A stretch of DNA of 64,000 nucleotides, from NCBI GenBank assembly GCA_032718475.1, contig JAUCBJ010006670.1, forward strand, positions 1 through 64,000, written 5' to 3'. The notes under the pieces were generated by a model. It was not told the origin of the DNA and ran no database searches. It saw only the letters and a list, made by a program, of their open reading frames with translations. Made by a program: the position numbers and the translations under genes. Position 1 is the stretch's first letter; each line of letters starts with the position of its first letter. This document shows positions 751 through 51,700 of the stretch, piece by piece. Source of the DNA: Nemertoderma westbladi (lineage: Eukaryota > Animalia > Xenacoelomorpha).

Positions 751-3700
751 CTGCAGAGAATGCGAAAATATGAATTACAAATAAATATAAACCCGAAGTG
801 ATGATACAAGCAGCTGCATAACATAGGCAATCTCCCCTACAACCTATGGCGACAGCATTGCTCACCTATTCCTCGCCTTCCGTCCCTCCGCACTGAGATC
901 GATATCCATAAACCTGGCGAGAGCCTCCGTTACGGGAGTCAGTTCCAACTCGCCCACATTCGAATCTTCCACAGTAACCCCCGGCTGGGTAGTTACGTCC
1001 TCAGCGGTTTCATCACCCTCATCCTCATTATCAACATCCCTCGTAGATACTTCATCTTCCTTCCCTTCGTCTCGGTCTGTGGGTTCTTTATCAGTAATAT
1101 CATCTAACTTCACTCCTTCATCTTCATTCTCTTTTTCCGCTTTGGGAGCTGCTAAACATATTGAGAGAGGGACATTACTGACAGATATTTTAGCAAACTA
1201 AAACGTTATAGGTATCTGTCTAATTACTAAATCTTTTACTGGTACTGAATAAGTTTTCGAAATTCAAGCTCTTGCAAATATTTTATTATCGTATTTTTCA
1301 GTAAATATATGTCATGTGCGGCATAAAGACTTTAACTATATAAAGGCGTATTGGTCTATAATAATTTATCTAGTTAATAACAATCAACTTACAAGTCTCT
1401 GCTTCGGAAGTAACATCATCTTTATCATCGTTTTCATCGTTGTCATCCTTGAGCTTTTCACCATCTTCTTTTTCTCTCTTTTCGTCTTCTTCCCTTCTTA
1501 ACTTCTCTTCCTCAACACGTTTTCTATGTTCCTCGAAATAATTGATCAATTCCTGCAATTAAAAAAATATTGAAATGAAGATCGGGATAGTTCTGAGTTA
1601 TTTCTGAGAAATGGAAGAGTTCCAACCTACCTGTGGTAACCTTTTGCTTCTCTGGGTAGGAAGAGTTCCAACCTACCTGTGGTAAACATCTGCTTCTCTG
1701 TGAGGGAAGAGTTCCAACCTACCTGTGGTAAACCTTTGCTTATCTGTGAGGGAAGAGTTCCAACCTACATGTAGTAAACCTCTGCTTCTCTGTGAGGGAA
1801 GAGTTCCAACCTACATGTGGTAAACCTTTGCTTATCTGATAGGGAAGAGTTCCAACCTACCTGTGGTAAACCTCTGCTTCTCTGTGAGGGAAGAGTTCCA
1901 ACCTACCTGTGGTAAACCACTGCTTCTCTGTGAGGGAAGAGTTCCAACCTACCTGTGGTAAACCTTTGCTTCTCTGGGTAGGAATAGTTCCAACCTACCT
2001 GTGGTAACCTTTTGCTTCTCTGGGTAGGAAGAGTTCCAACCTACCTGTGGTAAACATCTGCTTCTCTGTGAGGGAAGAGTTCCAACCTACCTGTGGTAAA
2101 CCTTTGCTTATCTGTGAGGGAAGAGTTCCAACCTACATGTAGTAAACCTCTGCTTCTCTGTGAGGGAAGAGTTCCAACCTACATGTGGTAAACCTTTGCT
2201 TATCTGATAGGGAAGAGTTCCAACCTACCTGTGGTAAACCTCTGCTTCTCTGTGAGGGAAGAGTTCCAACCTACCTGTGGTAAACCTTTGCTTATCTGTG
2301 AGGGAAGAGTTCCAACCTACATGTAGTAAACCTCTGCTTCTCTGTGAGGGAAGAGTTCCAACCTACATGTGGTAAACCTTTGCTTATCTGATAGGGAAGA
2401 GTTCCAACCTACCTGTGGTAAACCTCTGCTTCTCTGTGAGGGAAGAGTTCCAACCTACCTGTGGTAAACCTTTGCTTATCTGTGAGGGAAGAGTTCCAAC
2501 CTACTTGTGGTAAACCTCTGCTTTTCTGTGAGGGAAGAGTTCCAACCTACCTGTGGTAAACCTTTGCTTATATGGGTAGGAAGAGTTCCAACCTACCTGT
2601 GGTGAACCTCTGCTTCTCTGTGAGGGAAGAGTTCCAACCTACCTGTGGTAAACCTCTGCTTCTCTGTGAGGGAAGAGTTCCAACCTACTTGTGGTAAACC
2701 TCTGCTTCTCTGTGAGGGAAGAGTTCCAACCTACCTGTGGTAAACCTTTGCTTATATGGGTAGGAAGAGTTCCAACCTACCTGTGGTGAACCTCTGCTTC
2801 TCTGTGAGGGAAGAGTTCCAACCTACCTGTGGTAAACCTCTGCTTCTCTGTGAGGGAAGAGTTCCAACCTACTTGTGGTAAACCTCTGCTTCTCTGTGAG
2901 GGAAGAGTTCCAACCTACCTGTGGTAAACCTTTGCTTCTCTGGGTAGGAAGAGTTCCAACCTACCCGTGGTAAACCTTTCCGGCATCTCTGGGTAGGGAG
3001 AGTTCCATCCTACATGTGGTAAACCTTTGCTTCTCTGGGTAGGAAGAGTTCCAACCTACCTGTGGTAAACCTTTGCTTATCTGTGAGGGAAGAGTTCCAA
3101 CCTACCTGTGGTAAACATCTGCTTCTCTGTGAGGGAAGAGTTCCAACCTACCTGTGGTAAACCTTTGCTTATCTGTGAGGGAAGAGTTCCAACCTACATG
3201 TAGTAAACCTCTGCTTCTCTGTGAGGGAAGAGTTACAACCTACCTGTGGTAAACCTTTGCTTTATGGGTAGGAAGAGTTCCAACCTACCTGTGGTAACCA
3301 TTTGCTTCTCTGGGTAGGAAGAGTTCCTACCTACCTGTGGTAAACCTTTGCTTATATGGGTAGGAAGAGTTCCAACCTACCTGTGGTAACCATTTGCTTC
3401 TCTGGGTAGGAAGAGTTCCTACCTACCTGTGGTAAATCTTTGCTTCTCTGGGTAGGAAGAGTTCCAACCTACCCGTGGTAAACCTTTCCGGCATCTCTGG
3501 GTAGGAAGAGTTCCAACCTACTTGTGGTAACCATTTGCTTCTCTGGGTAGGAAGAGTTCCAACCTACCTGTGGTAAACCTTTGCTTCTCTGGGTAGGAAG
3601 AGTTCCAACCTATCTGTGGTAAACCACTGCTTCTCCGTGAGGGAAGAGTTCCAACCTACCTGTGGTAAACCTTTGCTTCTCTGGGTAGGAAGAGTTCCAA

Positions 3701-48700: not shown

Positions 48701-51700
48701 TGGTGTCCGTCCGGCAGTATTATAGATTGACCAACCTGGTGTCCGTCCGGCTGTATTATAGATTGACCAACCTGGTGTCCGTCCGGCTGTATTATAGATT
48801 GACCATCCTGGTGTCCGTCCGGCTGTATTATAGATTGACCAACCTGGTGTCCGTCCGGCAGTATTATAGATTTACCAACCTGGTGTCCGTCCGGCAGTAT
48901 TATAGTTTGACCAACCTGGTTTCCGTCCGGCTGTATTATAGATTGACCAACCTGGTGTCATCAGTCCGGCTGTAGTAAAGATTGTCCAACCTGGTGTCCG
49001 TCCGGCAGTATTATATTTGACCAACCTGGTGTCCGTCTGGCGGTATTATAGATTGATCAACCTGGTGTCCGTCCGGCTGTATTATAGATTGACCATCCTG
49101 GTGTCATCAGTCCGGCTGTAGTAAAGATTGTCCAACCTGGTGTCCGTCCGGCAATATTATAGATTGACCAACCTGGTGTCCGTCCGGCAGTATTATAGAT
49201 TTACCAACCTGGTGTCCGTCCGGCAGTATTATAGTTTGACCAACCTGGTTTCCGTCCGGCTGTATTATAGATTGACCAACCTGGTGTCATCAGTCCGGCT
49301 GTAGTAAAGATTGTCCAACCTGGTGTCCGTCCGGCAGTATTATATTTGACCAACCTGGTGTCCGTCTGGCGGTATTATAGATTGATCAACCTGGTGTCAT
49401 CAGTCCGGCTGTAGTAAAGATTGTCCAACCTGGTGTCCGTCCGGCTGTACTATAGATTGACCAACATGGTGTCCGTCCGGCTATATTATAGATTGACCAA
49501 CCTGGTGTCCGTCCGGCTGTATTATAGATTGACCAACCTGGTGTCCGTCCGGCTGTATTATAGATTGACCATCCTGGTGTCCGTCCGGCTGTATTATAGA
49601 TTGACCAACCTGGTTTCCGTCCGGCTGTATTATAGATTGACCAACCTGGTGTCATCAGTCCGGTTGTAGTAAAGATTGTCCAACCTGGTGTCCGTCCGGC
49701 AATATTATATTTGACCAACCTGGTGTCAGTCCGGCTGTAGTATAGATTGATCAACCTGGTGTCCGTCCGGCTGTACTATAGATTGACCAACATGGTGTCC
49801 GTCCGGCTATATTATAGATTTACCAACCTGGTGTCCATCCGGCGGTATTATATTTGACCAACCTGGTGTCCGTCCGGCTGTATTAGATATTTACCAACCT
49901 GGTGTCCGTCCGGCTGTATTATAGATTGACTAACCTGGTGTCCGTCCGGCAGTATTATACCCTCGGAAGGTTCGAACCGGAATGCAGCTCCAAACTTGGA
50001 GTTGTTGGGTTGGATATTGTAGAGTGCGTCGATGGCGCCTCGGTTGGATAAAATTACTTCGTACGAATGACTCGAGTTGATAAACACATTGCCGATGTCC
50101 AGCGTGTCGAAGGATAATTGGACATCGGGACCTAGAGAAATAAAGTTTGTGAGTACATCCACAGCACTAATGGCCAGGAGGAAATAAATTGTGTAACTGC
50201 TATAAGGGTTAGGGGAAAGTAAAGTTTGTATATAAATGCACTCAGGGTTAGGGGAAAATAAAGTTTGTATATAACTGCACTAAGGGTTAGGGGGAAATAA
50301 AGTTTGTGATTGCAGCCACAACACTGAGGGTCAGGGGAAAATAAAGTTTGTATATAACTGCACTAAGGGTAAGGGGGAATAAAGTTTGTATATAATTGTA
50401 CTCAGGGTTAGGGGGAAATAAAGTTTGTGACTGCAGCCACAGCACTGAGGGTCAGGGGGAAAATAAAGTTTGTATATAACTGCACTAAGGGTTAGAGGAA
50501 AATAAAGTTTCTATATAATTGCACTCAGGTTTAGGGGGAAATAAAGTTTGTGATTGCAGCCACAACACTGAGGGTCAGGGGAAAATAAAGTTTGTATATA
50601 ACTGAACTAAGGGTAAGGGGGAAATAAAGTTTGTATATAATTGCACTCAGGGTTAGGGGGAAATAAAGTTTGTGACTGCAGCCACAGCACTGAGGTTCAG
50701 GGGAAAATAAACTTTGTATATAAATAACTGCAAACTGCACTAAGGGTAAGGGAGAAATAAAGTTTGTATATAACTGCACTAAGGGTAAGGGGGAATAAAG
50801 TTTGTATATAATTGTACTCATGGTTAGGGGGGAATAAGTTTGTAACTGCAGCCACAGCACTGAGCGTCAGGGGGAAATAAAGTTTATATATAACTGCACT
50901 AAGGGTAAGGGGGAAATAAAGTTAGTATATAATTGCACTCAGGGTCAAGGGAAACTAAAGTTTGTATATAACTGCACTAAGGGTAAGGGGGGAATAAAGT
51001 TTGTATATAATTGTACTCAGGGTTAGGGGAAAATAAAGTTTGTGACTGCAGCCACAGCACTGAGGGTCAGGGGGGAAATAAAGTTTGTATATAACTGCAC
51101 TAAGGGTTAGGGGGAAATAAAGTTTCTATATAATTGCACTCAGGTTTAGGGGGAAATAAAGTTTGTATATAATTGCACTCAGGGTTAGGGGGAAATAAAG
51201 TTTGTGATTGCAGCCACAGCACTGAGGTTCAGGGGAAAATAAACTTTGTATATAAATAACTGCAAACTGCACTAAGGGTAAGGGAGAAAAGTTTGTATAT
51301 AAATGCACTCAGGGTTAGGGGGAAATAAAGTTTGTATATAACTGCACTAAGGGTCCGGGGAAAATACTTTGTATGTAAATAACAGGACAAAGGATAAGAT
51401 GGAAATTAAATTAATTAAAACCTGAAATCCTCGTATTTTTTGTCCCTTATTTATTGAATTGAGTTTGCGGACAATGTACAATACAGTTAATGTCCTCTTA
51501 GAGGCTTCGTAAATAAATATTAATTCACAACTAACCAGTTCCGTCAGCCTTTATCTCCACGGGTATTCTAGCTTCTCGACCAGACACGTCAAGGTAAGCC
51601 CAACACGAATACGATTGGACCTGGGTCGGCTTAAAGATCACCTGGATATCCTGATCTGAGTGGGGCCAAATATCACCTTCCAACGGGATTATCTGGTAAT

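What the first reader, a model, noticed from the sequence alone, without database searches (positions are those of the whole stretch)
1613..51365. Splice junctions repeatedly seed their own tandem arrays, in two genes and on both strands
Seen: six arrays with unrelated units (46, 37/39, 40-42, 54, 36 and about 39 bp; roughly 20 kb in total) are each anchored on a real exon-intron boundary, and the unit is a copy of that boundary. Four are HYDIN donors (7082, 16152, 44120, 49935), one is the antisense nested gene's acceptor (36144), one is a HYDIN acceptor flank (50131); a seventh, decayed case abuts the donor at 47384. Expansion is always into the intron and the exon stays intact. Known: tandem duplication of AG|GT segments is a proposed route of intron gain, but that does not explain kilobase arrays at several of about 48 junctions in one locus. 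Inference: either a splicing- or transcription-coupled mutational process (pausing, R-loops, RNA-templated repair or rolling-circle amplification at junctions) or selection that tolerates duplications only when the junction is regenerated. Either way it would be a major source of intron growth, and the spliceosome must pick one site among hundreds of near-identical decoys.
Basis: partly seen in the sequence, partly recalled or inferred. Interest (0 to 1): 0.92.

Follow-up and report, generated by a model that had tools for sequence, protein, structure and literature searches.

The report
Mirage minisatellites crowd HYDIN splice junctions
In an animal's cilia gene HYDIN and a gene nested inside it, five exon edges with their splice signals are copied head-to-tail up to about 234 times into the neighbouring intron, several times more often than random placement predicts; this repeat type is known from lancelet and human genes, assembled spliced sequence joins at the copy next to the exon at two of the sites, and the excess likely comes from short duplications arising more often at exon edges.

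Summary
Arrays of 46, 37/39, 54 and 36 bp units span HYDIN donors 7082, 16152, 44120 and 49935; a 42-bp array spans the acceptor (36144) of an antisense nested MOLO1-like gene. The 50131 array lacks the AG and is at best a decayed junction copy. The 47384 array repeats intron-start sequence only. Short-read contigs from two samples hold the three arrays whose edges I laid, so these are not long-read artefacts. A run with spliced contigs joins at the exon-adjacent donor at 16152 and 44120. Five of 12 non-coding arrays span a junction against 0.7-0.9 expected (P 0.0004-0.0014; window chosen for the feature), so a selection filter alone falls short. This is the known 'mirage' minisatellite (amphioxus; human F7 intron 7). 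Growth 'into the intron' follows automatically from first-site use, and unit ends do not fall at splice sites, which argues against RNA-product templates. New are scale (an ~80-bp intron grown to 5.5 kb; 36% of non-coding DNA) and the measured excess. This scan noted the same before: 14 notes seen on other pieces of this genome, and notes in at least 15 genomes (unchecked).

The parts
524..55051 (-). HYDIN, 22 modelled coding exons (about residues 154-2100 of homologue P0124); N-terminal exons not found in the window
   Evidence: tblastn; Pfam HYDIN Ig domain; junction continuity; N-terminal profile search negative
1613..7098 (-). 46-bp donor mirage, about 119 units (about 28 nt exon end + 18 nt intron start) at donor 7082; 5,469 of the 5,529-bp intron 1553-7081
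   Evidence: X4 contig leaves the genomic sequence at 7081
7082..7243 (-). HYDIN exon between the two largest arrays
   Evidence: X4 contig 25 covers 7081-7245 with 0 differences; homology
7441..16163 (-). 37/39-bp donor mirage, about 234 units, at donor 16152; 8,711 of the 8,908-bp intron 7244-16151
   Evidence: spliced join 16152 to 7243 in X4
29888..30085 (+). Exon 1 of an antisense MOLO1-like gene nested in the 18.6-kb HYDIN intron 23619-42255
   Evidence: Pfam PF17175 E=7.9e-7, 29.8 bits, cut-off 27
32994..36157 (+). 40-43-bp acceptor mirage, about 75 units (branch point CTAAC, pyrimidine tract, AG, 14 nt of exon) ending at predicted acceptor 36144
   Evidence: no RNA test of this junction
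36144..36983 (+). Exon 2 (coding part) of the nested gene
   Evidence: 278-aa open frame in phase with exon 1; no Pfam hit above a cut-off
43690..44127 (-). 54-bp donor mirage, 7 identical decoys plus one worn distal unit, at donor 44120
   Evidence: spliced join 44120 to 42459 in X4
46780..47383 (-). Decayed AT-rich repeat starting at donor 47384; copies intron-start motif, exon part not shown
48569..49959 (-). 36-bp donor mirage, about 38 units (25 nt exon + 11 nt intron), at donor 49935; 5-nt repeat TATAA one unit apart at the seed ends
   Evidence: homologue continuity
50194..51378 (-). 39/44-bp array 63 bp upstream of acceptor 50131; copies the pyrimidine tract, no AG at the junction position; possibly a decayed acceptor mirage
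   Evidence: exon part P about 0.05

Best explanation
These are 'mirage' minisatellites: five 36-54-bp pieces of DNA that straddle an exon-intron boundary stand in tandem arrays, likely seeded by short microhomology-guided duplications and likely grown by unequal exchange, and they are likely tolerated because splicing takes the copy attached to the full exon (shown at two donors). Because the exon-adjacent site is used, all extra copies end up intronic by definition. The 5-7-fold excess at junctions most likely reflects DNA-level seeding that is more frequent in and beside exons than in intron interiors (inferred: repair or recombination tracts that start in conserved exons and slip where the more variable intron begins). 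Seeds wholly inside exons would be purged unless in frame, and the junction copy cannot be deleted. The spliceosome would decide which arrays survive, not where they are born.
For: Shown: unit anatomy; first-donor joins at 16152 and 44120, at 16152 although 205 of 233 decoys carry the same 9-mer; arrays present in short-read contigs of two samples at the three edges laid. Seeding: exact TATAA one unit apart at 49935, only 3-nt matches at 7082 and 16152, none clear at 36144, and the 44120 test was mis-registered. Growth: repeated blocks of 5-6 units in three arrays against shuffled maxima of 0-3; at 16152 the block (8) barely exceeds shuffles (7). DNA or unspliced template: units carry exon-intron continuity and their ends lie 8-30 nt inside the exon. 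Excess: 5 of 12 against 0.71-0.94. Hints that coding edges in general are hit: a 34-bp duplication across the nested gene's stop codon and an in-frame 24-bp repeat in the RecQ5 frame. Same architecture, first-site use and length instability in amphioxus and human F7.
Against: No call tests the exon-centred seeding step; it rests on one stop-codon duplication. A GC-matched null is also rejected, so GC content alone is not the cause, and intron-start GC does not differ at array donors (P=0.14). The window was picked for this feature: dropping one array and doubling the junction count raises P to 0.03-0.08. RNA evidence is one run, contigs only, which drop minor isoforms. In-frame stop-free decoys exist (+39 at 16152; +36 and +72 at 49935). 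One unchecked scan note (e1-10614089) reports splicing from an internal copy elsewhere in this genome.
Confidence: 0.55

Rival explanations
1. Splicing- or transcription-coupled mutation: polymerase pausing or R-loops at splice sites cause breaks or slippage there, so junctions themselves seed the duplications.
For: 5-7-fold excess that survives GC matching; donors and an acceptor, in two genes on opposite strands; the three largest arrays are all junction arrays (length test P=0.037).
Against: No fixed register: exon share runs from 8-10 of 54 to 25 of 36 nt. No common strand skew relative to the host transcript (37-mer G-rich on its sense strand, 42-mer C-rich on its own). A duplication also straddles a stop codon. 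Unit ends are not at the splice site, which speaks against lariat or cDNA templates, though not against pausing or R-loops.
Confidence: 0.25
2. Ordinary minisatellites in a repeat-rich genome plus a selection filter; the apparent excess comes from window choice, unannotated exons and young transposon-derived intron interiors.
For: 7 of 12 arrays do not span a modelled junction; high-copy repeats fill parts of the introns; under the harshest correction P=0.08.
Against: P=0.0004-0.002 over five array definitions; P=0.003-0.008 after dropping one array; other pieces of this genome are reported with 7-10 such junctions per gene (unchecked).
Confidence: 0.13
3. The arrays are kept by selection for a function: spare donors, recursive splicing, intron delay or tuning of isoforms.
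For: Most decoys keep GT or AG; human F7 pseudo-sites can rescue a mutated donor (PMC1557585).
Against: GT and AG vary about as much as neighbouring bases, so retention fits homogenisation; 39% of 7082 decoys have lost G at -1, and none of the five commonest 49935 decoy 9-mers (37 decoys) has the authentic +4 A; spliced contigs show no extra unit at two donors.
Confidence: 0.05
4. Assembly artefact, or dispersed satellite families that landed at junctions.
Against: Short-read contigs of X1, X2 and X3 break at array edges and show the 37-bp tandem joint; summed depth on the 46- and 37-mers is far above the unique flank (the tool warns depth is no copy number). Units match the local exon and each family is confined to its own locus in the window.
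Confidence: 0.02

Closest known systems
Amphioxus 'mirage' minisatellites (Adh3, globins BflGb6 and BflGb9, troponin C, PGBD5). PMC3087553: 6 passages read; PMC3902484: 4 passages read; the Adh3 and troponin C papers seen only as cited there
   Same: Tandem units spanning exon-intron boundaries; both 5' and 3' boundaries; unit sizes overlap (Adh3 10-72 bp); many copies keep splice signals; normal splicing; mechanism called unclear.
   Different: Copy numbers in the passages read are 2-7; here 8-234, making up 98-99% of two introns. No enrichment measure appears in the passages read.
Human junction VNTRs: F7 intron 7 (37 bp, 5-9 copies), with 6-16, CBS, lamin B2 and PDGF as cited. PMC1557585: abstract and 12 of 32 passages read
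   Same: First unit spans the donor; identical pseudo-sites follow; the most upstream site is used.
   Different: 5-25 copies, one array per gene described; in 6-16 and CBS the two proximal pseudo-sites are also used, which was not seen at the two donors tested here (contigs only).
Intron gain by tandem duplication across a boundary (potato RdRp, PMC4974935: abstract read); overlapping megasatellites of vertebrates (bioRxiv 2021.07.19.452908: 5 passages read)
   Same: Duplication across an exon-intron boundary as the first event.
   Different: There a new intron or new coding repeats result, and megasatellite units are 90 bp or more; here no new intron or exon is seen and existing introns grow.

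Membership tests
Mirage / junction-spanning minisatellite | Head-to-tail array of 10-160-bp units | tested here: met
   TRF: periods 46, 37, 42, 54, 36
Mirage / junction-spanning minisatellite | Unit contains both exon and intron sequence of the adjacent true junction | tested here: met
   5 arrays
Mirage / junction-spanning minisatellite | Same, for the arrays at 50131 and 47384 | tested here: inconclusive
   50131 exon part P=0.04-0.05, no AG; 47384 exon part P=0.57
Mirage / junction-spanning minisatellite | Many copies keep GT or AG | tested here: met
   109/118, 228/233, 7/7, 33/37 GT; 57/67 AG
Mirage / junction-spanning minisatellite | Normal mRNA made from the exon-adjacent site | tested here: met
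   2 of 5 joins seen in full (16152, 44120), 1 in part (7082), 2 not tested by RNA (49935, 36144); one run, contigs only
Mirage / junction-spanning minisatellite | Length polymorphism or instability | tested here: inconclusive
   Depth ratios differ between runs but also between X2 and X3 of one sample; block duplications imply past length change
Dispersed satellite or transposon family | Unit found at unrelated loci | tested here: inconclusive
   Not elsewhere in the window for 9 of 9 units; whole genome not available
Intron gain by tandem duplication | A new intron or exon is spliced from the duplicated segment | tested here: not met
   Gap-free homologue alignment at the array junctions; spliced contigs without extra units at two donors

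The most novel reading that the evidence does not exclude
In this animal, exon-intron boundaries are mutational hotspots that seed their own minisatellites genome-wide through a splicing- or transcription-coupled process, making junction-born arrays a leading engine of intron and genome growth (one in nine junctions here; a third of non-coding DNA) and forcing strictly positional splice-site choice among hundreds of identical sites.
Probability: 0.25. Interest if true: 0.8.

Novelty: new variant of a known kind. Interest (0 to 1): 0.5.

Why it matters
Mirages were described as a gene-level oddity with an unclear origin. Here five sit in one locus, turn introns of about 80 and 210 bp into 5.5 and 8.9 kb, and exceed random placement 5-7-fold. 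If this holds genome-wide, it is a route of intron growth that needs no transposons, and the origin of mirages becomes directly testable by comparing splice sites with non-spliced coding edges. It is also a natural test of splice-site choice: at 16152 the first of 206 identical 9-mer donors is the one seen in the spliced contig, extending the human F7 first-site rule about 25-fold in copy number.

Tried and rejected
No whole genome is held, so the genome-wide test was not run. No RNA holder was listed; X4 is treated as RNA only because its contigs are spliced. X4 had no listed cover at exons 45304-45504 and 47384-47486: no finding. Homologue search for the nested gene's exon 1 found 0 of 13 candidates, so its junction is not confirmed by alignment. 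The RecQ5 tree (quick method, 28 of 120 listed hits) puts the window on a long branch; the top hit is an acoel, but the organism is only placed as an animal. A scan of all 46 junctions for exon sequence in the adjacent 400 bp of intron found 4 at P<0.02 and 44120 at P=0.02, and no new case. Intron-start GC as a predictor: P=0.14. Copy number from contig depth was rejected as unreliable. The microhomology test at 44120 was mis-registered and is not used. A 3n rule for units was rejected: 46 and 37 are not multiples of 3 and only 3 donor decoys, and no acceptor decoy, are in frame without a stop. The 24-, 48- and 66-bp arrays could not be tied to an exon. Nine paper searches (listings and abstract starts only) showed no genome-wide measure of minisatellites at junctions; most subscription papers are not in the library, and no supplements were read.
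Full report
Setting. The window holds an animal HYDIN gene on the minus strand (22 modelled coding exons, 55051 to 524), an antisense two-exon MOLO1-like gene inside its 18.6-kb intron (29888-30085 and 36144-36983) and an intronless RecQ5 frame from 60762. 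HYDIN residues before about 154 were not found. The species is not identified: RecQ5 is about 50% identical to many animal proteins and sits on a long branch.

The arrays. TRF finds all arrays at the stated places. Parsing on the splice motif shows that five units are copies of the adjacent junction. Donor 7082: 118 decoys, 109 with GT. Donor 16152: 233 decoys, 228 with GT, 205 with the authentic 9-mer. Donor 44120: 7 identical decoys and a worn distal unit. Donor 49935: 37 decoys, 33 with GT; the five commonest decoy 9-mers all have G where the authentic site has A at +4. Acceptor 36144: 57 of 67 parsed decoys keep AG, and the common units carry CTAAC and a pyrimidine tract. The array near acceptor 50131 starts 63 bp away. 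It aligns to the junction over 39 nt but has no AG at the junction position, and its exon part is only marginal (P 0.04-0.05). The decayed repeat at donor 47384 copies the intron start only. A scan of all 46 junctions found no further case.

Are the junctions real? The first 11 exons and the last 9 join into stop-free blocks of 722 and 707 aa that align gap-free to homologues P0124 and P0135 at 49935, 47384, 44120, 16152, 7082 and 50131 when the exon-adjacent site is used (the two middle exons were left out of this test). Run X4 is filed as 'DNA?' but its contigs are spliced. One joins 44867-45034, 44117-44236 and 42276-42456 with no extra unit. Another covers 7081-7245 and continues with the letters of the 16152 exon, not of a majority decoy; it ends 6 unshown letters after leaving the genome at 7081. 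This is one run, and contigs drop minor isoforms. The 49935 and 36144 junctions have no RNA test.

Are the arrays real? In X1, X2 and X3 (two samples; X2 and X3 differ from the window by substitutions and indels) unique contigs stop at 44098, 30 letters inside the 54-mer. X1 and X2 bridge 7061-7472 between the two big arrays, all three show the 37-bp tandem joint, and summed depth on the units is far above the flank. X1 may be the source sample.

More than chance? Of 12 non-coding arrays with period at least 10 and length at least 150 bp, 5 span one of 46 junctions. With arrays collapsed to one unit and wholly coding positions excluded, 0.71 are expected (P=0.0004), or 0.94 with GC matching (P=0.0013); four other definitions give P 0.0002-0.002. 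Dropping one array for ascertainment gives 0.003-0.008; also doubling the junction count gives 0.03-0.08. This null already includes the selection filter, so selection alone does not explain the excess. Junction arrays are longer (P=0.037) and make up 19.2 of 25.9 kb of array sequence, 36% of non-coding DNA. Intron 1553-7081 is 5,469 of 5,529 bp array and intron 7244-16151 is 8,711 of 8,908, so they were about 80 and 210 bp before (inferred).

How it likely works. Seeding (inferred): at 49935 the exon and the original intron carry TATAA exactly one unit apart, the mark of slippage or microhomology-guided repair; 7082 and 16152 show only 3-nt matches and 36144 none. Unit ends lie 8-30 nt inside the exon and units keep exon-intron continuity, so the template was DNA or unspliced RNA, not a lariat or spliced cDNA. 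Growth (inferred): variant units recur in blocks of 5-6 in three arrays, above shuffled maxima of 0-3, as expected from unequal exchange and not from one rolling-circle step; the 16152 array is not informative on this. Tolerance (shown at two donors): the exon-adjacent site is used; most decoys would shift the frame or meet a stop, with 3 in-frame exceptions. Polarity into the intron follows from this rule. Excess (not tested): I favour seeding that is more frequent in and beside exons, with edge copies surviving and anchored. Hints are a 34-bp duplication across the nested gene's stop codon and an in-frame repeat in RecQ5. Among listed differences, 2 of 40 substitutions and 0 of 12 indels are exonic (exons are 12% of the stretch; 84 and 22 more rows were not shown), as in any gene. 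Pausing or R-loops at splice sites remain a live rival (0.25).

Comparison. Earlier scan notes led me to the literature, which I checked. Amphioxus 'mirages' are tandem duplications of 5' and 3' exon-intron boundaries that do not disturb splicing, vary in length and have an unclear origin (PMC3087553, 6 passages; PMC3902484, 4 passages). Human F7 intron 7 has a 37-bp unit spanning the donor, with the most upstream site chosen; 6-16, CBS, lamin B2 and PDGF are cited as similar (PMC1557585, abstract and 12 passages). The five arrays meet the structural features; length polymorphism is inconclusive. They differ in scale: 8-234 copies against 2-25. Nine searches listed no genome-wide enrichment study; the library lacks most subscription papers, including the original Adh3 report, and no supplements were read. 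In this genome 62 of 79 noted windows fit the words 'tandem splice'; I saw 14 distinct notes, all on junction arrays, unchecked and selected by readers. One reports use of an internal copy.

Verdict. Real, more than chance in this window, a known kind at unusual scale. Interest 0.5: the arrays are explained as mirages, but the cause of their excess at junctions is open and testable in this genome.

Noticed in passing
window 20392-20422 (-): The large HYDIN exon changes frame here; a 31-nt GT...AG mini-intron restores it, or the assembly has an indel.
   Followed up: partly
window 36976-37041 (+): 34-bp duplication straddling the stop codon (36981-36983) of the nested MOLO1-like gene: a coding edge that is not a splice site.
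   Followed up: partly
window 7441-16163 (-): 153 units of the 37-mer hold the first 13 of 16 letters of the human hypervariable minisatellite core (motif as tabulated in PMC9069542, 2 passages). Noticed after the fact.
   Followed up: partly
window 55409-57592 (-): 24-bp array (about 90 units) in the presumed HYDIN intron; each unit holds a donor-like GTGAGT in HYDIN's sense, but no exon was identified upstream.
   Followed up: partly
window 37678-38685 and 38888-39418: 66-bp and 48-bp arrays with no assigned junction; the 66-mer begins across the stop codon of a 39-codon frame (37569-37688) of unknown status.
   Followed up: partly
window 60762-64000 (+): Intronless RecQ5 frame (over 1,079 aa, runs off the window), antisense to HYDIN and probably inside its upstream intron; in-frame 24-bp repeat at 63576-63920.
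   Followed up: partly
window 24298-25497: Two 15-bp arrays that are reverse complements of each other flank a 36-bp array; looks like a small inverted-repeat transposon.
   Followed up: no
window 18561-18611 (-): Perfect 22-bp duplication 10 nt upstream of HYDIN acceptor 18551; intron sequence only.
   Followed up: no
window 49935 (-): The authentic donor matches the consensus at 8 of 9 places; the common decoys and the distal unit have G at +4 (7 of 9). The true site may have been strengthened after the array arose.
   Followed up: no
window 43534-43640 and about 47500-48560: Very high-copy dispersed repeats in short-read contigs; the first lies about 50 bp from the distal end of the 54-bp array.
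   Followed up: no
window 16994-17480 and 27911-28103: GC-rich simple repeats (6-bp x80, 5-bp x39) not at junctions.
   Followed up: no
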